NCBI RefSeq assembly: GCF_000009965.1 | Contig: NC_006624.1 | Location: 1,890,001 to 1,922,000, forward strand | Direction: 5' to 3' | Origin: Thermococcus kodakarensis KOD1 | Lineage (GTDB): Archaea > Methanobacteriota_B > Thermococci > Thermococcales > Thermococcaceae | Length of the DNA: 32,000 nt | Part shown: positions 5,694-21,910 of the stretch, piece after piece | Numbering within the stretch: the first letter of the stretch is position 1 | Layout of the letters: each line of letters begins with the position of its first letter | The notes under the pieces: generated by a model | Told to the model about the DNA's origin: nothing | Databases searched by the model: none | The model's input: the letters and a program-made list of their open reading frames with translations, nothing else | Translations under genes and position numbers: made by a program

Positions 5694-6182
5694 TCAGTGG
5701 ATCGTGTAGCCAATCTTCTCGACGAGCTCCCTGCGCTCCTTTCTCTGCTCTTCCGTCTCGATCTTGTTCGCGGCCTTGCCGTCCACGACGCCCAGGACGC
5801 TTCTTCCGAGGTCTGTCTCGGCCACTATGACCTGGAACGGGTTCTCGCTAGCTCCATAGACCATTGCAACTGCCGGGTGGTTCTTGACGGTGTTGAGAAC
5901 GTTTATCGGGAATGCGTTCCTCATAAGGATGACGAAGACGTGGCCGGCCCCTATCTTCACGGCGTTCTTGGCTGCGAGCTCCTCAAGCTCCTTGTCGTTT
6001 CCTGTGAAGCGGGTGAGCTGGGGCTTTGCCTCGTTCATTGCGATTCCAAACTTTATCCCCGGAACTGCCGTCAGAAGAGCCCTGGCGAGGTCATCAACTG
6101 TGAATATCGAGAAGTTGCCCTGCCCGATTATGACCTCAACCCCCTCGGGCTTTTCTATGTCAACGACCTCTATCCTGACCAT
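5694..6182 (-). CDS. Adenosine-specific-kinase family protein (PF04008 / PAE2307-like)
   Basis: 162 aa. The conserved archaeal pattern IGQGNFSI...GIKFGIAMNEA...GAGHVFVILMRNAFPINVLN was recognised from memory of the family. SD GGTGA lies 6 nt upstream of ATG 6182. Confidence 0.6.
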   Translation of the reverse strand: MVRIEVVDIEKPEGVEVIIGQGNFSIFTVDDLARALLTAVPGIKFGIAMNEAKPQLTRFTGNDKELEELAAKNAVKIGAGHVFVILMRNAFPINVLNTVKNHPAVAMVYGASENPFQVIVAETDLGRSVLGVVDGKAANKIETEEQRKERRELVEKIGYTIH

Positions 6183-6249
6183 CCGACATCACCAGAAGAG
6201 TTTTTAATTGTCGGATAATATAACTTTTCTGGGTCGGTGGTGTTTGAAC

Positions 6250-7170
6250 ATGGGGGAAGTAAAGCTTGAAGAGATCGAGTTTTTGGTGGAGCTGCTGAGC
6301 AAATACCCCCTGGAAAGCCTTAGGAGCATAGCCCGGGAAGAGGGGTTAGATTATTACAAGCTTAAGCGCATCTATGACAAGTACTATGGTAAATACCTAA
6401 CTGTGAGCGCAAGGTACAACATAAGAATTATAGGTCTCAAGAGCTTTGTTGCTTTTCTTGCGGTTTCTCCTGAGAGCCTTCTTGAGACTGCAATACAGCT
6501 AACCAAGAACCCCTTTATTAAATATGTGAATCCGGCTTTTGGCTTTAAGAACGGTTTGTCCTTATATTTCCAGGTTCCGCATGACCAAGTGGATCTTATA
6601 GATGAAATGCTTGGAAAGTACTCAGATGACTTCGAGTACTATGAGGTTAGGGCGTACACTAAGGGTGAACTTCCCGATGAGTGGGGGGACTGGGATCTTG
6701 GCTATGAGTATGCCATCCTGATGGACATCCTCAAGTGGGACGCTCGAACACCTATCACTGAAATTGCAGAAAAACTCGGCAAGTCAAGGCCCACCGTCAG
6801 GTACATGATAAACCGCCTGAAGGAGAAGGGCATACTGATTAATTTTGTTCCTCTCCCCGACATGAATGTCTCGGATCGAGGAATTATCGGAATCGCGAAA
6901 GAGCTTGACGAAGAGGTGCTTAAACGATTCAACGACTATGAGATTACCGTTGGCGTGCTCCCGGGAGAGGGGTATATCTTAGAGTGGTTCTTCTCCTCAA
7001 AGGAGGATATGGGTTCAAAAATCTTGGAGTTCAGCAGGTACGTTGAGAAAATCCTTGTTGAGTACTTTGATCCGACCTTCAAGGAGCTTAACGACAGAAA
7101 TTCCAGGATGGCTTTCCAGAGAATGGTGAAAAAAGACGGGAGCGGCTACAGATCAATACTTGAGTTTTAA
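6250..7170 (+). CDS. Tandem (fused double) Lrp/AsnC-like HTH regulator
   Basis: The track ORF starts at 6208, but ATAATATAA (TATA-like, about 6216-6224) and GGTGGTG (SD) lie inside that extension, so ATG 6250 is preferred (306 aa). The second half carries a clear AsnC-type HTH (ILMDILKWDARTPITEIAEKLGKSRPTVRYMINRLKEKGIL) plus a RAM-like domain. The first half repeats the same HTH+RAM layout in degenerate form. Confidence 0.7.
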   Translation: MGEVKLEEIEFLVELLSKYPLESLRSIAREEGLDYYKLKRIYDKYYGKYLTVSARYNIRIIGLKSFVAFLAVSPESLLETAIQLTKNPFIKYVNPAFGFKNGLSLYFQVPHDQVDLIDEMLGKYSDDFEYYEVRAYTKGELPDEWGDWDLGYEYAILMDILKWDARTPITEIAEKLGKSRPTVRYMINRLKEKGILINFVPLPDMNVSDRGIIGIAKELDEEVLKRFNDYEITVGVLPGEGYILEWFFSSKEDMGSKILEFSRYVEKILVEYFDPTFKELNDRNSRMAFQRMVKKDGSGYRSILEF

Positions 7171-8108
7171 AGCCTCATTAGGATGAGTGGGCAGTACTCA
7201 AGTCCGTCTATTTCACCAGTAGCTTGATACTCAAGTGCTCTACAGTCATGGCAGATGTACTTGAATGGGCAGCTGGAACATGCGGGTATGTTATCCTTGG
7301 TCATTCTCCAGAAGGCCCTGAGGCGTTTTCTGCGGGTTACCTTCCTGAGGCTCTCTTTTTTCAGATCGCCAACGATGTAGTTTCTGAGTAATGGACATGG
7401 CAGTACGTAGCCATCGGCCGTAACCGCGACTGTTCCAGCGAGACAGTCGTGGTACTCCTCCGTGGTCGGGTTCAGTATGCGTCTGACTTCTATGGTGTTA
7501 AAGCTGATTTTTTTAACGGAACCTGGATATAATACGTCCACGTATAGCTCCCCTGGAAAGCTCTCTCTTGTAACATCCTCTAGGTAGTCTGGATCCACAA
7601 CAGCCAGAACTCCGTGAAGCCATGGATAGCCGGACAGTTCCTCTGGTCCGACGTCAGGGTACTTTATCTCGGCTATGAAGCGAATCTCTTCTGCTGGCGT
7701 AATCTTTGGAATGTCTTCGAACCTAACAACCGCATAAACTTCAGGGATTTCTATTTCAGATGCAAAGTTAGCCAGCGCCATCAGAGGTTCAATGCTATCG
7801 TAGTTGGTTAGCCAGAGCTCCTTACCGCCCATTTTCCTGAACTCGAGTATAGCCCTTTTGAATTCCTCCAGGCTCAAAGGCTCCCTTCTGAGGATGAACC
7901 GGTTGTTTCCTATGCACCCAATTGACCTCGGAATTCCGGTAACCTCTGAAAATTTTCCCTTTCCTGCGCCAAGTTGGAGGATGAGCCTCTCTATCTTCCC
8001 CCTGTGCTTCTTATTGCTCCATGGAGGTTTGCCAATGATTACGTTCTTGACTTTATTGGTCATGCTAATTGGGGTGGCAATCGACTCAACCCTCTCCACG
8101 ATTCTCAC
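7167..8108 (-). CDS. SPASM-domain protein with a degenerate radical-SAM core (no CxxxCxxC)
   Basis: 313 aa. The C-terminus has a full SPASM cysteine pattern: C-x15-C with G-x4-C (CLAGTVAVTADGYVLPC), then CSSCPFKYICHDC and a final C (EYCP). The N-terminal two thirds align by eye to a radical-SAM barrel, but the cluster loop reads GAGKGKFSEV and the only other Cys is in SIGCIG. The start is uncertain: GTG 8108 lies within GGTGAG, and alternatives are GTG 8099 or ATG 8063. Confidence 0.7.
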   Translation of the reverse strand: MRIVERVESIATPISMTNKVKNVIIGKPPWSNKKHRGKIERLILQLGAGKGKFSEVTGIPRSIGCIGNNRFILRREPLSLEEFKRAILEFRKMGGKELWLTNYDSIEPLMALANFASEIEIPEVYAVVRFEDIPKITPAEEIRFIAEIKYPDVGPEELSGYPWLHGVLAVVDPDYLEDVTRESFPGELYVDVLYPGSVKKISFNTIEVRRILNPTTEEYHDCLAGTVAVTADGYVLPCPLLRNYIVGDLKKESLRKVTRRKRLRAFWRMTKDNIPACSSCPFKYICHDCRALEYQATGEIDGLEYCPLILMRL

Positions 8109-8193
8109 CGAAAAAAGATTTGCTTCGGAGTATATATACTTTATCTATTCCGATTTTGCAAACTACTAGAAAAAGTAAGCAAAAAATGGAAAA

Positions 8194-8619
8194 TTACTCC
8201 CTAACAGCCTTGTCTCCCTCAAGCCAGAAAGCTCCTTCGGGGGTGACCTCCTTCTTCCACACTGGGACCCTTCGTTTTACCTCGTCAATTGCCCACTCAC
8301 AGGCCCTAAACGCCTCCTTCCTGTGCTTGGCACTCGCCACGATCAGTATTGTGTCCTCGCCGACATCAAGCTCTCCGTATCTGTGCCATATTACCATGTC
8401 CAGAATCGGGAACTTTTTGAGTGCCTCCTCTCTTATCCTCTCCATCTCTGCTTCGGCCATCTCTGGGTAAGCCTCGTATATGAGCTTCTCGACCTTTCTT
8501 CCAAGGTTCTCGTTCCTAACCTGGCCGAGGAACACAACGTAAGCGCCGGACTCTGGAACTCGGAGCAGGGAAATTGCCTCATCAACGCTGAATTTATCTT
8601 TGGTGAGTCTGACTTTCAT
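8194..8619 (-). CDS. moaE: Molybdopterin synthase catalytic subunit MoaE
   Basis: 141 aa with the MoaE pattern GAYVVFLGQVRN...YEAYPEMAE...VASAKHRKEAFRACEWAIDEVKRRVPVWKKE. Confidence 0.85.
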   Translation of the reverse strand: MKVRLTKDKFSVDEAISLLRVPESGAYVVFLGQVRNENLGRKVEKLIYEAYPEMAEAEMERIREEALKKFPILDMVIWHRYGELDVGEDTILIVASAKHRKEAFRACEWAIDEVKRRVPVWKKEVTPEGAFWLEGDKAVRE

Positions 8620-8702
8620 CGGAAATCACCCCGTTATGTCATTGTCCGAAACCCAATTAAACCTACCGATGGATGGAAATCAGAATTCAAGGGGTGAAGA
8701 GC

Positions 8703-9542
8703 ATGAATGGAAAAAGGGTCTTGGGGCTTTTAATAGCCATCCTAATCGTTGCGTCGGCCGGTTGCTTGGGGGGAGAGACAACGACCGATACTAAACCTGA
8801 AACCGCCGACTCAATGCATACCAGTGGCATAAATAGTACAAAAACGAACACTGGCATCGACTCCTCGTCTTCTAATAGAGAAACCGGAGACGTTGACCTT
8901 GAAAGCATAGTCGGGAAAATAGAAACCTACTCATATCATCAGGATGCCCTTATGAAGCTTGATGTGACCACAACCGAAGGCAACATCACAATGAATACCA
9001 ACGTTAGCATGCTGATAATCGAGAATGGATACGTTGATACTGTGGGAAGAAAGGCTCTGGTTAACTCCACGATCACAATTCTCCCAGATAATCTGACTGA
9101 GAATATGCTCCAGATTGTAATAGGGAACAAGACTTACATAAAGACCAGCTTTGGAGTCAATGAGATTAACTTCACGACCCTATGGGATTCCCATCCTCTT
9201 AGACTAGTTGAGGCCATTATCCAGGAAGAACCGCTCGCCAAGTACACAGAGAACGGGACTACTGTTTTCGTGTACTCACTATCGGAGGACGTTATCCTTC
9301 CCTTAGCCGAGGCATATCTTAGTCCGGGCGATTCAAACGTGACGATAACGGATGCAGTCCTTGAGATCCATGTCGCCAACGGTACAATCATCCAGATAAA
9401 GCTAGCTTACTCACTGGTTGCAAAGATGTCTAGTGACGATGCCTTTGGACATATCGAGGTAATTGAAACTGGAACCTGGAAGAGCACGGTCAGAATAACC
9501 TCAATAAACGAGAAAAGGGAAGTGGAACCTCCGACTACTTAA
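8703..9542 (+). CDS. Secreted lipoprotein, N-glycosylation-sequon rich, function unknown
   Basis: ATG 8703 is preceded by GGGGTGA 5 nt upstream (the track start at 8673 is less likely). It has a signal peptide with a lipobox-like VASAGC, followed by a Thr/Ser-rich linker and at least 9 N-x-S/T sequons. It looks AT-richer than its neighbours. Confidence 0.7.
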   Translation: MNGKRVLGLLIAILIVASAGCLGGETTTDTKPETADSMHTSGINSTKTNTGIDSSSSNRETGDVDLESIVGKIETYSYHQDALMKLDVTTTEGNITMNTNVSMLIIENGYVDTVGRKALVNSTITILPDNLTENMLQIVIGNKTYIKTSFGVNEINFTTLWDSHPLRLVEAIIQEEPLAKYTENGTTVFVYSLSEDVILPLAEAYLSPGDSNVTITDAVLEIHVANGTIIQIKLAYSLVAKMSSDDAFGHIEVIETGTWKSTVRITSINEKREVEPPTT

Positions 9543-10233
9543 GTTCCACTACCTCAAAGATGTTCATGGCCAGGTCTATCAGAAGGAGCTTGTTCAACAG
9601 GGGCTCTCCAATGCCCGTCAGCAGTTTGATGACTTCCATTGCCTGTATCGAACCAACTACTCCAGCTGTGGCACCGATTATCGGGAACTTCTCCTCTTTT
9701 TCCCTAACTTTCGGAAAAATCTCCCTGAGGCTCTTTGTGATGCCTGGAACTATCGTAGTCACCTGCCCATGCATGCCTTCCACTGCGCCGTGGACGAGCG
9801 GGATTCGTTTTCTGTGCACGTACTCGTCGAGCAGGTAGCGGGTCTGGAAGTTGTCCAGGCAGTCAACCACGATATCAACGTCCTTAAGGACTTCATCGAT
9901 GTTCTCTGCAGTGAGTCTGCCTGTGTAGGCCTCTATCTTTATGTCGGAGTTGAAGCGTTCGAGCTTCCATTTTGCGGATTCCGGCTTTGACCTCCTTCCA
10001 ACATCTTCCTCCCAGTGAAGTATCTGCCTGTTGAGGTTGCTCAGCTCGGGGGTCTGTTCGTCGATGAGGAGAACGGTGCCTATTCCAGCGGCGGCCAGGT
10101 AATACGCGACGGGACTGCCGAGGCCGCCAACACCGACGACTGCGACTTTTGCGCCCTTCAGTTTTTCCTGCCCTTCCTCTCCGAATATCATTATCTGCCT
10201 GTCATACCTCTCAAGTTCTCTCTCGGTCAGCAT
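9535..10233 (-). CDS. ThiF/MoeB/UbaA-type E1-like adenylyltransferase for the adjacent Ubl/sulfur-carrier protein
   Basis: It has the ERYDRQI start, the Rossmann motif VAVVGVGGLGSPVAYYLAAAGIG and DCLDNFQTRY. ATG 10233 lies 1 nt after the TAA of the upstream Ubl gene. The track start GTG 10245 falls within the Ubl coding sequence and SD. Confidence 0.85.
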   Translation of the reverse strand: MLTERELERYDRQIMIFGEEGQEKLKGAKVAVVGVGGLGSPVAYYLAAAGIGTVLLIDEQTPELSNLNRQILHWEEDVGRRSKPESAKWKLERFNSDIKIEAYTGRLTAENIDEVLKDVDIVVDCLDNFQTRYLLDEYVHRKRIPLVHGAVEGMHGQVTTIVPGITKSLREIFPKVREKEEKFPIIGATAGVVGSIQAMEVIKLLTGIGEPLLNKLLLIDLAMNIFEVVELK

Positions 10234-20168: not shown

Positions 20169-20244
20169 AGCCCCGTGGTGTAGCGGCCAAGCATGCGGGA
20201 CTTTGGATCCCGCGACCCGGGTTCGAATCCCGGCGGGGCTACCA
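20169..20244 (+). tRNA. tRNA-Gln (anticodon UUG), CCA encoded
   Basis: Hand-folded cloverleaf. Acceptor AGCCCCG/CGGGGCT, anticodon stem CGGGA/TCCCG with loop CTTTGGA (anticodon TTG), T arm CCGGG-TTCGAAT-CCCGG, discriminator A, then CCA at 20242-20244. Confidence 0.9.
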
Positions 20245-20270
20245 GTACAGCCCTTTCTTGCGAAAGCGCT

Positions 20271-20404
20271 GGCGGAAAGTTGGTATGCTCTTTTAAACAG
20301 GCTCGTTTTATGGGGGGTTTTACTTACCAATCTGCTGATTCAAAAGGATTTTATCACCGCATAGTGCCCGAAGGGCACTAAAAAGAAAGTCAAAATCACA
20401 ATTA
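20271..20404. repeat. Conserved core of tandem repeat, copy 1 (134 nt)
   Basis: It matches 20793-20925 with 8 differences by hand alignment (about 94%). It contains TTTTAAAC (20291-20298), a G6 run and the hairpin AGTGCCC-GAA-GGGCACT (20363-20379). Confidence 0.9.
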
Positions 20405-20503
20405 ATAAGAGGTTTTGAGAGTAAAACCCATGCAAAGTTGCTTTCTGGAAAGAGCATACGCTCCTCAATAAGCAAAGTTCGAGAAGAAGGGCACACTTTT
20501 GGT

Positions 20504-20524
20504 CAAGCTTTTTCCAAAAGCTTG
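20504..20524. repeat. Palindromic hairpin CAAGCTTTT-tcc-AAAAGCTTG (copy 1 of 3)
   Basis: Perfect 9-bp inverted repeat preceded by the conserved ACTTTTGGT. Related copies are at 20733-20753 and 21024-21044. Confidence 0.85.
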
Positions 20525-20627
20525 AAGGGCAAAGTTTCATCAAAGAGCGAATGTCCTTTTTAAACTGCTGGGTTTCAGTGATTCTCACCATAAATTGGGC
20601 AATCCTCAAGGGTTTACTCACAATATA

Positions 20628-20645
20628 ACGCCCCGAAGGGCGTTA
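20628..20645. repeat. GC hairpin AACGCCC-cgaa-GGGCGTT of repeat unit 2
   Basis: Perfect 7-bp stem followed by an A-rich run. It is position-equivalent to 20363-20379, 20883-20899 and 21174-21190. Confidence 0.8.
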
Positions 20646-20732
20646 AAAAAGAAAACCCGCATTACTCCGCCCCTCTATCAAGAGAATCTAATCGCATCAA
20701 GCCAACATCAAGAAGACATTCAAACTTTTGGT

Positions 20733-20753
20733 GAAGCTTTTTCTAAAAGCTTC
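20733..20753. repeat. Palindromic hairpin GAAGCTTTT-tct-AAAAGCTTC (copy 2 of 3)
   Basis: Same hairpin as 20504-20524, but the closing pair has switched from C..G to G..C on both arms (a compensatory change). Confidence 0.85.
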
Positions 20754-20792
20754 AGCGCCGCTTTCACTATCGTTCAAGCGTCCTTGACGGAT

Positions 20793-20925
20793 GGCGGAAA
20801 GTTGGTATGCTTTTTTAAACAGGCTCGTTTTATGGGGGGTTTACTTTCAATTGGCTGATTCAAAAGGATTTTATCACCGTATAGTGCCCGAAGGGCACTA
20901 AAAAGAAAGTCAAAAATCACAATTA
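20793..20925. repeat. Conserved core of tandem repeat, copy 2 (133 nt)
   Basis: Partner of 20271-20404, offset by 522 nt. It contains TTTTTTAAAC (20811-20820) and the hairpin at 20883-20899. Confidence 0.9.
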
Positions 20926-21023
20926 GCGGGAAGATTTTGGAATTAAACCCGCGTGAACTTGCTTCCTGGTGGAAGCATGCACTTCCCAACAACAAGTTCA
21001 AGGGGGAAGGAAACATTTTTGGT

Positions 21024-21044
21024 CAAGCTTTTCCTAAAAGCTTG
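21024..21044. repeat. Palindromic hairpin CAAGCTTTT-cct-AAAAGCTTG (copy 3 of 3)
   Basis: Perfect 9-bp inverted repeat preceded by ATTTTTGGT. Confidence 0.85.
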
Positions 21045-21173
21045 CTGGCGAAGTTTGATCAAGGTTCGTAGCTCTTTTTTTAGAATCCTAATCCATCGTG
21101 ATTTTCCAATTCAAATGGCTTTTTGAAAGTGAGAACCCTTAACACCCTGTCAACTCGTGTTTAACTCTAAATC

Positions 21174-21190
21174 GACGCCCTTTGGGCGTC
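21174..21190. repeat. GC hairpin GACGCCC-ttt-GGGCGTC of repeat unit 4
   Basis: Perfect 7-bp stem followed by the A-rich aaagaaaagaaaac, as in units 1-3. Confidence 0.75.
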
Positions 21191-21311
21191 AAAGAAAAGA
21201 AAACACCCTTTTTTCAAGAAGTTTCCTATAAAGGTTCCACTCAAAAATGAGCACTTGCAGTCCAAAATCCTGAATAAAAAGCCACCTCAAAGAAGAGCTA
21301 CAAACTTTGAT

Positions 21312-21333
21312 GAAACTTTGCTTGCAAAGTTTC
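21312..21333. repeat. Palindrome GAAACTTTGC-tt-GCAAAGTTTC just upstream of the cobA-like promoter
   Basis: Perfect 10-bp inverted repeat. 21304-21320 (ctttgatgaaactttgc), which overlaps its left arm, is the reverse complement of gcaaagtttcatcaaag at 20529-20545. Confidence 0.8.
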
Positions 21334-21341
21334 TTGGCAAA

Positions 21342-21350
21342 CATATAAAA
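21342..21350 (+). promoter_or_regulatory. TATA-like box (catataaaa) for the cobA-like gene
   Basis: It lies 33 nt upstream of ATG 21383. Confidence 0.4.
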
Positions 21351-21382
21351 GGAGCTGGAGATTATGTCCAACGGTGAAAACA

Positions 21383-21910
21383 ATGAGCTGGAAGGACAGA
21401 CTTGGTTTGATTCACATCTACACTGGCAACGGAAAGGGAAAGACCACGGCTGCGTTTGGACTCGCTGTAAGGATGCTCGGTTCAGGTGGAAAGGTTGCCA
21501 TAGTGCAATTCATGAAAGCTCCCAAGGTCTATGGAGAGCAGAAGAAGATAGAGGAGTGCGGAGCCCTCATTGAGTCCTTTGGTTTGCCCGGCTTTGTTCA
21601 CGGAAAACCCAGCGAGGATGACATAAAAGCTGCAAAACGGGCACTTGAAAGAGCGAAGGAGCTGGTGTCAAGCGGCGAGTGGGATCTCGTTATTCTCGAT
21701 GAGGTTTGCGTCGCCCTCGGCTTTGGAATGCTCGGTGTTGAGGAAGTTAAGGAAGTGATAAAGAACAAAGCTGAAAACACCGAACTCGTTCTCACTGGGA
21801 GATACTGCCCGGAGGAGCTTTTTGAGCTGGCCGACTACGTGACCGAGATGAGGGAAGTTAAGCACCCGTACCAGAGAGGGATCCTGGCGAGGCGCGGTGT
21901 TGAATATTGA
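21383..21910 (+). CDS. cobO: Cob(I)yrinic acid a,c-diamide / cob(I)alamin adenosyltransferase (CobA/CobO/BtuR family)
   Basis: P-loop YTGNGKGKTTAAFGLAVR plus VQFMK and ILDE motifs. ATG 21383 is 5 nt after GGTGA (21373-21377), and the track GTG 21374 is inside the SD. Confidence 0.85.
   Translation: MSWKDRLGLIHIYTGNGKGKTTAAFGLAVRMLGSGGKVAIVQFMKAPKVYGEQKKIEECGALIESFGLPGFVHGKPSEDDIKAAKRALERAKELVSSGEWDLVILDEVCVALGFGMLGVEEVKEVIKNKAENTELVLTGRYCPEELFELADYVTEMREVKHPYQRGILARRGVEY

What the first reader, a model, noticed from the sequence alone, without database searches (positions are those of the whole stretch)
20246..21373. 1.1-kb non-coding region built from four tandem hairpin-rich repeat units: candidate family of structured sRNA genes or a protein-binding array
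Between tRNA-Gln (ends 20244) and the cobA-like gene (ATG 21383) there is no credible ORF. The three track ORFs on the minus strand read the repeat in different frames. The DNA is AT-rich: my hand count for 20401-20460 is 37% GC.

Organisation: two super-units (20271-20792 and 20793 to about 21340, offset 522 nt), each made of two related sub-units, giving four units of about 230-290 nt. Units 1 and 3 share a 134/133-nt core (20271-20404 vs 20793-20925) with only 8 differences by hand alignment. The sequence just 5' of each core is unrelated, and the 3' parts are much more diverged. Units 2 and 4 are recognisably related to each other (gtgattctcaccataaattggg vs gtgattttccaattcaaatggc, and the A-rich run after the hairpin).

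All four units keep the same order of landmarks:
- A T-rich, TATA-like TTTT(T)AAAC at 20291, 20557 and 20811 (TTTTTTTAGAA at 21075).
- 60-100 nt later, a perfect 7-bp GC hairpin at 20363-20379, 20628-20645, 20883-20899 and 21174-21190, followed by an A-rich run.
- Then an AAGCTTTT-type or GCAAAGTTTC-type palindrome.

Position-equivalent extra hairpins differ in sequence between units 1 and 3: GGTTTT/AAAACC (20411-20428) vs GCGGG/CCCGC (20926-20952), and an imperfect stem at 20439-20456 (six pairs, one of them T-G) vs the perfect TGCTTCC/GGAAGCA (20960-20977). The T-G pair would be a G-U wobble only in a plus-strand RNA.

Inference: structure, not sequence, is being conserved. This is the hallmark of RNA genes or of symmetric protein-binding sites. 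I know of no described element with this architecture.
Basis: partly seen in the sequence, partly recalled or inferred. Interest (0 to 1): 0.78.

Follow-up and report, generated by a model that had tools for sequence, protein, structure and literature searches.

The report
Relic integrase-gene stubs beside tRNA-Gln
The 1.1-kb repeat array beside a tRNA gene of Thermococcus kodakarensis is most likely a stack of decayed front ends of mobile-element integrase genes, whose leftover promoters make two already published orphan small RNAs, rather than a new family of structured RNA genes.

Summary
In detail: 20245-21373 is non-coding, about 40% G+C, and built of four related units with perfect GC hairpins and AT-rich palindromes. 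The window is T. kodakarensis KOD1 (window coordinate + 1,890,000). Published dRNA-seq lists two orphan sRNA start sites here, 20432(+) and 21009(-), on opposite strands and at non-equivalent positions.

The units are not a locus-specific RNA family. The same sequence lies directly after the CCA end of at least six different tRNA genes in other Thermococcus, in one to four tandem copies. It is variable between close relatives (2, 3 or 4 units) and absent upstream of cobA in most species.

The tRNA-proximal motifs continue, on the minus strand, into the att-encoded part of SSV-type "suicidal" integrases. They are in frame with Int(C) in strain JdF3 and T. nautili. They lie inside an intact 400-aa integrase whose attP matches KOD1 tRNA-Gln 48/48. 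In one metagenome contig they form a 70-codon open Int(N) frame.

Best reading: a stack of solo int(N)-plus-promoter relics left by repeated element integration and loss. The GC hairpin covaries strongly, and that remains unexplained in detail.

Half of KOD1's unnamed orphan sRNA starts lie within 1 kb of tRNA genes.

The parts
20169..20244 (+). tRNA-Gln(TTG), TKt38 of T. kodakarensis KOD1. Its 3' part, 20197-20244, serves as an attB site.
   Evidence: ARAGORN and Rfam. Coordinates match TKt38 1910169-1910244 in PMC4247193 Table S8. The 48 nt at 20197-20244 are 100% identical to the attP inside the 400-aa integrase ORF of L138.
20245..20283 (-). Type-1 tRNA-proximal motif (GT)ACAGCCCTTTCTTGCGAAAGCGCTGGCGGAAAGTT. 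On the minus strand it reads NFPPALSQERAV (frame a) or LSASAFARKGC (frame c), running into the antisense of the tRNA.
   Evidence: The same motif follows tRNA-Ala(CGC), His, Val(CAC) and two intron-containing tRNAs, and a partial tRNA-His, in other Thermococcus. It is in frame with att and Int(C) in JdF3. Frame a is open through att in all 7 instances. tblastn of integrase P0126 reaches 62 nt beyond the tRNA, E = 0.001.
20245..20526 (-). Unit 1 (A type): an int(N)-plus-promoter relic and the newest member of the stack. It is absent from the closest relative, L006.
   Evidence: Alignments A1 and A2. L006 has tRNA-Gln followed directly by U2-U3-U4. Stops and frameshifts occur in every minus frame.
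20527..20792 (-). Unit 2 (related to the A and B types). It starts with a half type-2 motif, GCAAAGTTTCATCAAAG.
   Evidence: In L006 the complete type-2 palindrome lies directly after the tRNA-Gln CCA end and aligns with the att-proximal int(N) of L138 at 86% over 80 nt, including 48 nt of tRNA.
20793..21047 (-). Unit 3 (A type). It lacks the first ~22 nt of the type-1 motif and carries an 80-codon open minus-strand frame (20774-21016).
   Evidence: The ORF's only significant match in 1.84 billion proteins is P0241, a 64-aa ORF that appears to be the translation of another A-type unit (E = 1e-4). A second hit at similar E (P0242, 636 aa, highly repetitive) looks spurious. No protein family was found.
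21048..21340 (-). Unit 4 (B type). It starts with the type-2 motif GGCGAAGTTTGATCAAGGTTCG and ends with an inverted full type-2 palindrome.
   Evidence: 21048-21068 is 95% identical over 21 nt to codons of Int(N) of the L138 integrase. Homologous B units lie next to att(His)+Int(C) in T. nautili and in T. peptonophilus.
20362..20380 (.). GC hairpin of U1, TAGTGCCC-GAA-GGGCACTA, followed by an A-rich run.
   Evidence: Fold z = -3.2 on + and -2.0 on -. Covariation over 17 units.
20626..20645 (.). GC hairpin of U2, TAACGCCC-CGAA-GGGCGTTA.
20882..20900 (.). GC hairpin of U3, identical to that of U1.
21174..21190 (.). GC hairpin of U4, GACGCCC-TTT-GGGCGTC. The loop reads AAA in the orthologous unit of L006.
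20400..20432 (+). TATA-like AATTAATAAG (20400-20409) and the published + strand start site at 20432. The transcript probably ends at T5, 20508-20512 (inferred).
   Evidence: TTS1910432_+ in PMC4247193 Table S6. Spacing read. Fold z = -0.68.
21009..21043 (-). Palindrome AAGCTTTTCCTAAAAGCTT (21025-21043), read as a TATA box on the minus strand, and the published - strand start site at 21009. The transcript probably ends in the T-tracts at 20917-20897 (inferred).
   Evidence: TTS1911009_- in PMC4247193 Table S6. TATA centre is ~26 nt upstream. Fold z = -2.28.
20505..20523 (.). AT palindrome at the end of U1, AAGCTTTTTCCAAAAGCTT.
   Evidence: It aligns with the int/MazG divergent promoter region of L134 and with the unit end in JdF3, by reading.
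20734..20752 (.). AT palindrome at the end of U2.
21305..21333 (.). Inverted copy of the type-2 motif, CTTTGATGAAACTTTGC-TT-GCAAAGTTTC, abutting the cobA promoter.
   Evidence: (I2). The arms are kept and the spacer varies in T. peptonophilus and L006.
21343..21910 (+). cobA-like gene (ATP:corrinoid adenosyltransferase, ATG 21383) with its TATA-like ACATATAAAA. This is the right border of the array, not part of it.
   Evidence: PF02572.

Best explanation
The array is a graveyard of mobile-element integration scars at a tRNA hot spot.

Thermococcales plasmids and viruses carry SSV-type "suicidal" tyrosine integrases. Their attP lies inside the integrase ORF, antiparallel to the target tRNA. Integration therefore leaves the intact tRNA followed by the integrase promoter and N-terminal stub, int(N). 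Int(C) and a partial tRNA end up at the far end of the element (Badel et al. 2020).

Each 230-290-nt unit here is a decayed copy of that att-proximal module. Reading on the minus strand, it runs from the AT-rich palindrome (the old, probably bidirectional, TATA region) through the int(N) body with its GC hairpin to the motif that used to abut att.

Inferred steps: repeated integration into the tRNA, followed by deletion of the element body together with Int(C) and attR, stacked the stubs, newest next to the tRNA. Exchanges between elements at different tRNA genes swapped the flanking tRNA. The surviving promoters still fire and give the two published orphan sRNAs.

Shown: the homology, the positions and the start sites. 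Inferred: the stacking mechanism, the transcript 3' ends, and the lack of a present function.
For: 1. **Identity and transcription.** The window is KOD1, and two orphan start sites map to 20432(+) and 21009(-).
2. **Position next to tRNAs.** The type-1 motif sits directly after the CCA end of tRNA-Gln (KOD1), Ala-CGC (T. peptonophilus), His, Val-CAC and two intron-containing tRNAs. It also follows a partial tRNA-His next to an integrase gene in JdF3.
3. **Continuity with Int(C) in JdF3.** The motif, att and the 307-aa Int(C) form one open frame...NFPPALSSERAV-LGPGPGFGPGLGDPQPE.... In T. nautili a 90%-identical Int(C) with the same att is joined instead to the type-2 motif and a B-type unit.
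4. **An intact integrase with the matching attP.** L138 carries an intact 400-aa integrase whose attP is 48/48 identical to KOD1 tRNA-Gln. Its Int(N) codons match the starts of U4, of T. peptonophilus unit B and of the first unit in L006.
5. **An open Int(N) frame in L134.** The whole unit is a 70-codon open frame. Its ATG lies ~40 nt from a divergent MazG-like gene, as in L138. Between L134 and JdF3 the codons for DSLKAA differ only synonymously (read).
6. **Rapid turnover.**
   - Unit number is 2, 3 or 4 in close relatives.
   - The array is absent upstream of cobA in five other Thermococcus, where restriction-modification and other nuclease or helicase genes, or an integrase, sit instead.
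   - KOD1 equals L006 plus U1 inserted next to the tRNA.
7. **No sign of present coding or RNA constraint.** There is no codon-position bias, the ORFs have no significant Pfam match, Rfam has no match, and the consensus fold shows hardly any covariation.
Against: - No annotated full-length integrase containing the type-1 motif or an A-type Int(N) was found.
- Protein-level similarity of the unit bodies to Int(N) moieties is not significant beyond the att-encoded part.
- There is no Int(C), no partial tRNA and no att copy between units or anywhere in the 32-kb window. The stacking-by-deletion mechanism is therefore inferred, not shown.
- The regular module, with similar junctions and a hairpin kept with compensatory changes in 17 units, is tidier than random decay would give. 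It suggests a function, at least in the donor elements.
- The archaeal plasmid collections that could show the module in a free element were not available. PLSDB appears to hold no archaeal plasmids (an assumption). IMG/VR scans found nothing.
- My genome-wide pattern scan was wasted.
Confidence: 0.65

Rival explanations
1. The units are genes for a family of trans-acting or antisense small RNAs that the host, or the mobile elements, maintain. The hairpins and palindromes would be RNA structure and terminators.
For: - Two start sites were mapped by dRNA-seq inside the array.
- The GC hairpin shows 21 compensatory cells against 8.3 +/- 3.1 in shuffles, 0 of 500 shuffles as high.
- The - strand sRNA folds somewhat better than shuffled sequence, z = -2.28.
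- Blocks of near-invariant sequence occur in the A-type units.
- The + RNA of U1 and the - RNA of U3 come from homologous segments and would be partly complementary (read).
Against: - The start sites lie at non-equivalent positions and on opposite strands, and their promoters are not conserved between units.
- The covarying hairpin lies outside both inferred transcripts.
- Wobble pairs favour neither strand: 6 on + and 7 on -.
- The hairpin loop flips from TTT to AAA between orthologous units.
- RNAalifold gives a covariation term of -0.32 kcal/mol.
- The + sRNA folds at z = -0.68.
- Rfam has no match.
- The array is absent from most Thermococcus at this locus.
Confidence: 0.12
2. The array is a protein-binding or DNA-structural region. 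The palindromes would be operators for a dimeric regulator, or binding sites for the integrase itself, controlling cobA or recombination at the tRNA.
For: - Perfect palindromes recur at fixed places: AAGCTTTT..AAAAGCTT three times, and GAAACTTTGC..GCAAAGTTTC directly upstream of the cobA TATA element.
- The arms of the cobA-proximal palindrome are kept while its spacer changes in three genomes.
- Loop flips and the lack of strand bias fit a DNA-level element.
- The type-1 motif is almost invariant in 7 genomes although the rest of the unit drifts.
Against: - cobA in five other species has a short upstream region without any of these palindromes, so cobA does not need them.
- The stem sequences differ between units (GTGCCC, GCGCTC, ACGCCC, GGCGTCC), which a single binding protein would not tolerate.
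- No binding data exist.
Confidence: 0.1
3. The units are native chromosomal tRNA-trailer repeats, amplified by unequal crossing-over. The resemblance to integrase N-termini would arise because excising elements pick up whatever lies downstream of the tRNA as their new int(N).
For: - Badel et al. 2020 document hybrid integrases assembled from pseudogenes of different origin.
- The same Int(C)+att(His) is joined to type-1 in JdF3 and to type-2 in T. nautili.
- Unit ends and unit starts share the direct repeat TTTGGTCAAGCTT / TTTGATCAAGGTT, which could drive unequal exchange.
Against: - Many tRNA genes lack the motif: tRNA-Tyr in this window and tRNA-His in L007.
- The motif follows many different tRNAs with near-identical sequence, which fits horizontal spread better than vertical descent.
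- L134 and L138 place the module in an element-like context next to MazG, AbiE and McrB-like genes.
Confidence: 0.1

Closest known systems
int(N) pseudogenes left by SSV-type 'suicidal' integrases of Thermococcales mobile elements (pT26-2, TKV and TGV type; Badel et al. 2020, PMC7253208)
   Same: - The module lies directly downstream of an intact tRNA gene, antiparallel to it.
- Its reading frame runs into the tRNA 3' half, which is translated as a Gly/Pro-rich segment.
- Different N-terminal stubs are combined with the same Int(C).
- The target tRNA is highly variable.
   Different: - Here there is no element body, no Int(C) and no attR.
- Several stubs are stacked head to tail without att copies between them.
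- The stubs are too decayed to show significant protein similarity.
- I could not show that the integrases involved belong to the pT26-2 cluster itself.
Orphan small non-coding RNAs of T. kodakarensis (Jaeger et al. 2014, PMC4247193, Table S6)
   Same: Two of them, TTS1910432_+ and TTS1911009_-, are transcripts of this array. They share the low G+C (0.43 and 0.47), the weak predicted structure and the narrow conservation described in that paper.
   Different: The paper lists them as separate orphans without noting the repeat array, its link to the tRNA or an integrase origin.
tRNA-linked genomic islands and partial tRNA duplications in Thermococcaceae (PMC9897764; PYG1 of Pyrococcus yayanosii, PMC5126054)
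   Same: - Integration occurs into tRNA genes, and a partial tRNA-Gln(TTG) copy of the integration type is listed for P. yayanosii (I did not check that it belongs to PYG1).
- Later rearrangements move the tRNA copies.
- The tRNA-to-cobA interval holds variable cargo in relatives: restriction-modification and other nuclease or helicase genes.
   Different: The KOD1 locus has lost all cargo and all partial tRNA copies. Only non-coding stubs remain.

Membership tests
int(N) relic of an SSV-type suicidal integrase | Lies immediately downstream of an intact tRNA gene whose 3' part is the att site. | tested here: met
   U1 starts at the base after the CCA end of tRNA-Gln. The 48 nt at 20197-20244 equal the attP inside the L138 integrase ORF.
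int(N) relic of an SSV-type suicidal integrase | Reading frame antiparallel to the tRNA, continuous with the translated att site. | tested here: met
   Minus frames a and c are open from the motif through the tRNA antisense in KOD1. Frame a is open in all 7 instances. The frame is continuous with Int(C) in JdF3 and T. nautili.
int(N) relic of an SSV-type suicidal integrase | Homology to the N-terminal moiety of an intact integrase gene. | tested here: inconclusive
   - Type-2 motif: 92-95% identity over 21-26 nt to Int(N) codons of L138, and 86% over 80 nt for L006 including the tRNA.
- Type-1 and A-type body: only tblastn E = 0.001 to P0126, mostly att-encoded.
- phmmer is not significant for the unit bodies.
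- No protein hits otherwise.
int(N) relic of an SSV-type suicidal integrase | A matching int(C) plus partial tRNA (attR) at the other end of an integrated element. | tested here: not met
   No integrase-like sequence and no extra tRNA 3' fragment occur in the 32-kb window. The stubs are therefore solo relics, not the border of a resident element.
   Literature start sites at 20432(+) and 21009(-). There are no data for U2 and U4.
   The strands are opposite and the positions non-equivalent. The TATA of the + start site is lost in U3.
   - Only the GC hairpin covaries, and it lies outside both inferred transcripts.
- The alifold covariation term is -0.32 kcal/mol.
- Fold z-scores are -0.68 and -2.28.
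- The transcript 3' ends are inferred, not measured.
Any Rfam family | Match at or near the gathering score. | tested here: not met
   Only the tRNA passes. The best other match is 18.7 bits against a 57-bit threshold.
Fragment of a sequenced phage or bacterial plasmid | Nucleotide similarity to INPHARED or PLSDB records. | tested here: not met
   No blastn match at E <= 0.01. These collections seem to hold few or no Thermococcales elements, so the test is weak.

The most novel reading that the evidence does not exclude
tRNA-flanking stacks of integrase front-end relics may be a general and functional feature of Thermococcales genomes.

They would supply about half of the "orphan sRNAs" of T. 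kodakarensis. They would be retained because their transcripts are antisense or sense copies of the 5' ends of incoming elements' integrase mRNAs, acting as an RNA-based brake on superinfection. Alternatively, they could serve as a cassette store of N-terminal modules and promoters from which hybrid integrases with new tRNA specificity are rebuilt. The covarying GC hairpin would be the functional core.
Probability: 0.15. Interest if true: 0.7.

Novelty: new variant of a known kind. Interest (0 to 1): 0.4.

Why it matters
It gives a likely origin for two published orphan sRNAs of a model archaeon and suggests the same origin for many others. Of the 53 unnamed orphan start sites, 26 lie within 1 kb of a tRNA gene. 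If these too are leftover integrase promoters, much of the "T. kodakarensis-specific sRNA" repertoire is transcriptional noise from mobile-element scars rather than regulation.

It also shows what suicidal integrases leave behind after the element is gone: stacked, fast-evolving promoter-plus-stub modules. That is the raw material proposed for hybrid integrase formation and target switching.

Practically, it warns against reading hairpin covariation in such relics as proof of a host RNA gene.

Tried and rejected
1. **Wasted genome-wide scan.** The scan with TTTGRTSAARCTTTN{3,7}AAAGYYTS was too unspecific. **Public nucleotide collections.** blastn against PLSDB and INPHARED, tblastn of the JdF3 integrase against PLSDB, and IMG/VR scans with both motifs all found nothing.\n3. 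**Rfam.** Nothing at gathering thresholds or at E <= 10.\n4. **cobA riboswitch or leader.** Rejected: no Rfam hit, and cobA has a ~100-nt upstream region in other species.\n5. **Units currently encode a small protein.**\n - Frames differ between units.\n - Stops occur in every frame.\n - Substitutions show no codon-position bias.\n - The ORFs have no significant Pfam match.\n - The synonymous look of the U1 versus T. peptonophilus hairpin changes (SALRAL in both) is explained by third codon positions pairing with each other in this palindrome.\n6. **Unit bodies versus integrase N-termini at protein level.** Not significant.\n7. **Strand assignment from G-U wobbles in the hairpin.** No bias.\n8. 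**T-rich TTTTAAAC as a TATA box.** No mapped start site follows it. On the minus strand it falls in the stub's reading frame (..LFK..).\n9. **Last contig look-ups.** P0124 starts at a contig end and P0125 is not on record, so neither showed the DNA upstream of an intact integrase.
Full report
**1. Observation**

The region is as described.
- tRNA-Gln(TTG) ends at 20244. The cobA-like gene starts at ATG 21383, as its 175-aa homologues show.
- Between them, ORFs are at most 93 aa and the seven longest have no significant Pfam match.
- G+C falls to 0.38-0.45, against 0.50-0.60 outside.
- U1 and U3 share 96-98% identical blocks at offsets 520 and 522.
- The palindrome AAGCTTTTNNNAAAAGCTT occurs exactly three times, with 0.01 matches expected by chance.
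- Four perfect 7-8-bp GC hairpins sit at 20362-20380, 20626-20645, 20882-20900 and 21174-21190.
- All four units align with one another.

**2. Source and published transcription**

The tRNA coordinates equal TKt38 (1910169-1910244) and TKt39 (1913492-1913569) of Thermococcus kodakarensis KOD1 in Table S8 of Jaeger et al. 2014 (PMC4247193). Window coordinate + 1,890,000 is therefore the genome coordinate.

Their Table S6 of orphan small RNAs lists two entries in the array:

| Start site | Window position | G+C | Conservation as listed |
|---|---|---|---|
| TTS1910432_+ | 20432 (+) | 0.43 | 'Thermococcus' |
| TTS1911009_- | 21009 (-) | 0.47 | 'T. kodakarensis' |

- The + start lies 23-32 nt downstream of AATTAATAAG (20400-20409). 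That element reads AATTAGCGGG in U3.
- The - start lies ~26 nt downstream of the centre of the palindrome at 21025-21043, read as TTTTAGGA on the minus strand.
- Likely 3' ends are the T5 run at 20508-20512 for the + RNA and the T-tracts at 20917-20897 for the - RNA. These are inferred.
- The two RNAs thus come from opposite strands and non-equivalent units.
- Neither is strongly structured: z = -0.68 and -2.28.
- Rfam has nothing.

**3. Relatives**

The DNA upstream of cobA is a synteny break.
- T. gorgonarius, T. thermotolerans, T. camini, a metagenomic Thermococcus and strain JdF3 have ~70-160 nt between cobA and the upstream gene. Their neighbours differ: HsdR/HsdM, a PLD-SNF2 helicase, DUF835 with tRNA-His, and a nuclease-like gene with an integrase ~1.7 kb further upstream.
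- Only three genomes carry the array:

| Genome | Layout |
|---|---|
| KOD1 | tRNA-Gln, 4 units |
| GCA_001316165 (L006) | tRNA-Gln, 3 units |
| T. peptonophilus (L002) | tRNA-Ala(CGC), 2 units |

- KOD1 equals L006 plus U1 inserted between the tRNA and U2.

**4. The units follow tRNA genes in general**

- The ~35 nt after the CCA end (ACAGCCCTTTCTnnCGAAAGCGCTGGCGGAAAGTT, 'type 1') are the same after tRNA-Gln in KOD1 and after tRNA-Ala in T. peptonophilus.
- A metagenome scan for 21 nt of this motif returned four Thermococcus-like contigs. In each, the motif directly follows a tRNA: Val(CAC), His, or one of two intron-containing tRNAs. One or more units follow it.
- L136 has a unit, then tRNA-Gln, then a further array.
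- In JdF3 the motif follows a partial tRNA-His 3' half that lies next to an integrase gene.

**5. Link to integrases**

Badel et al. 2020 (PMC7253208) describe Thermococcales 'suicidal' integrases. The attP lies inside the ORF and the gene is antiparallel to the tRNA. After integration the tRNA is followed by int(N), and int(C) lies at the far end. Four observations tie the units to this layout.

- **JdF3.** On the minus strand the type-1 motif reads NFPPALS(S/Q/L)ERAV. It is in one open frame with the att-encoded LGPGPGFGPGLGDPQPE and the 307-aa Int(C). This frame is open through att in all seven instances.
- **T. nautili.** A 90%-identical Int(C) with the same att is joined instead to AAACTTCGC-GCAG-GCGAAGTTTG ('type 2') and a B-type unit.
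- **L138.**
  - It carries an intact 400-aa integrase (P0127).
  - Its attP is 48/48 identical to window 20197-20244.
  - Its Int(N) codons match the start of U4 (95% over 21 nt), T. peptonophilus unit B (92% over 26 nt) and the sequence right after tRNA-Gln in L006.
- **L134.**
  - The whole unit is a 70-codon open frame.
  - It ends in ...DSLKAARNFPPALSLERAV plus att.
  - Its ATG lies ~40 nt from a divergent MazG-like gene, as in L138.

The AT palindrome at the end of the KOD1 units aligns with that divergent promoter region (reading).

**6. What is not explained**

- The unit bodies show no significant protein similarity to known Int(N) moieties.
- A-type units, at 80% mean identity, show no codon-position bias. 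They are not under coding selection now.
- The GC hairpin is nevertheless kept with different stems in 17 units.
  - 88.9% of cells are paired.
  - 6 of 8 pairs show changes on both sides.
  - There are 21 compensatory cells against 8.3 +/- 3.1 in shuffles (0 of 500 as high).
  - Slid controls give 30-43% paired.
- Wobble pairs favour neither strand.
- The loop flips from TTT to AAA between orthologous units of KOD1 and L006.
- I take the hairpin to be a functional feature of the donor elements, or a self-maintaining DNA palindrome. Its role is unknown.
- Beyond the hairpin, the consensus fold shows almost no covariation.

**7. Conclusion**

The array is best read as stacked solo int(N)-plus-promoter relics of tRNA-integrating elements, with relic promoters producing the two orphan sRNAs. 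Rivals are a maintained sRNA family, a protein-binding array, and a native trailer repeat captured by elements. They are less well supported but not excluded.

**8. Wider pattern**

Of the 53 unnamed orphan start sites in Table S6, 26 lie within 1 kb of a tRNA gene. This compares with 1.7 expected from genome coverage, binomial P about 1e-24. The null ignores that orphan sites can only lie in intergenic DNA. By my own rough estimate (not computed) a fairer expectation would be perhaps 5-8, which is still far below 26. I could not fetch those regions to test homology.

**9. Limits**

- Archaeal plasmids are apparently not in the searchable collections.
- Transcript 3' ends and the stacking mechanism are inferred.

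Noticed in passing
T. kodakarensis genome-wide (Tables S6 and S8 of PMC4247193); in this window 20432 and 21009: 26 of 53 unnamed orphan sRNA start sites lie within 1 kb of a tRNA gene (expected 1.7). They often form clusters, for example 4 next to TKt14, 3 next to TKt16/17 and 2 next to TKt43. This suggests that many orphan sRNAs come from tRNA-flanking non-coding DNA like this array.
   Followed up: partly
window 21181-21183 versus L006 3296-3298: The loop of the otherwise identical U4 hairpin, GACGCCC-nnn-GGGCGTC, is TTT in KOD1 and AAA in the close relative. Loops GAA and TTC likewise alternate between units. This looks like small hairpin inversions at the DNA level.
   Followed up: partly
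L136, reverse strand, oriented positions 1755-1858 (locus 769-872): Directly after tRNA-Gln in this metagenomic Thermococcus lie three further GC-only hairpins in a row (AAGGGGGC-tcc-GCCCCCTT, GTGGGGC-ttc-GCCCCAC, GGGGGC-taac-GCCCCC). They precede the first type-2 motif and have no counterpart in KOD1.
   Followed up: no
L134 2997-6308; L138 1-1322 and 2559-4153; L004 1-3344; L005 1-1319: The interval between the tRNA and cobA holds changing cargo in different Thermococcus.
- L134: a MazG-like gene, an AAA_5 ATPase and a 501-aa protein.
- L004: HsdR and HsdM.
- L005: a PLD-SNF2 helicase.
- The L138 element contig carries AbiEii and AbiEi beside its integrase.
The interval behaves as a variable island in which most recognisable genes look defence-related.
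   Followed up: partly
L140 (T. nautili CP007264) 6001-9807: Three integrase-family genes lie within 4 kb: the 307-aa Int(C), a 388-aa gene on the other strand and a 182-aa fragment. They sit next to TFX_C, LrgB and LrgA. ARAGORN called no tRNA gene in this 12.9-kb locus. It looks like a multiply hit integration site.
   Followed up: no
L015-L017, L025, L030, L034, L036, L037, L041-L043, L047, L049, L051, L060, L063, L071, L072, L076, L077, L081, L085, L087 and others: The unspecific palindrome pattern hit many separate loci in single genomes of Komagataeibacter, Novacetimonas, Acetobacter and Gluconobacter. They share nearly the same ~30-nt hairpin (blastn 93% to window 20725-20755). This is probably an unrelated, REP-like or terminator-like dispersed repeat of acetic acid bacteria.
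   Followed up: no
L002 (T. peptonophilus CP014750) 1440-2300: Between the 2-hydroxyacid dehydrogenase gene and tRNA-Ala lie ~900 nt with no called gene. Part of it reads like a fragment of a coding sequence (...PVCQDTGT...) on the plus strand, possibly a pseudogene. It shows that the left flank of the array is also rearranged in this species.
   Followed up: no
window 20527-20545 and 21305-21321: A perfect 17-nt inverted repeat (GCAAAGTTTCATCAAAG / CTTTGATGAAACTTTGC) brackets U2-U4. The last copy of the type-2 motif therefore faces the opposite way, towards cobA. This may mark an old inversion or a lost tRNA on the cobA side.
   Followed up: partly
window 23657 (-), genome 1913657: Table S8 of PMC4247193 lists a start site at 1913657(-), classed there as antisense to tRNA-Tyr (TKt39). 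It lies in the ~180-nt non-coding stretch downstream of that tRNA, which has no type-1 or type-2 motif.
   Followed up: no
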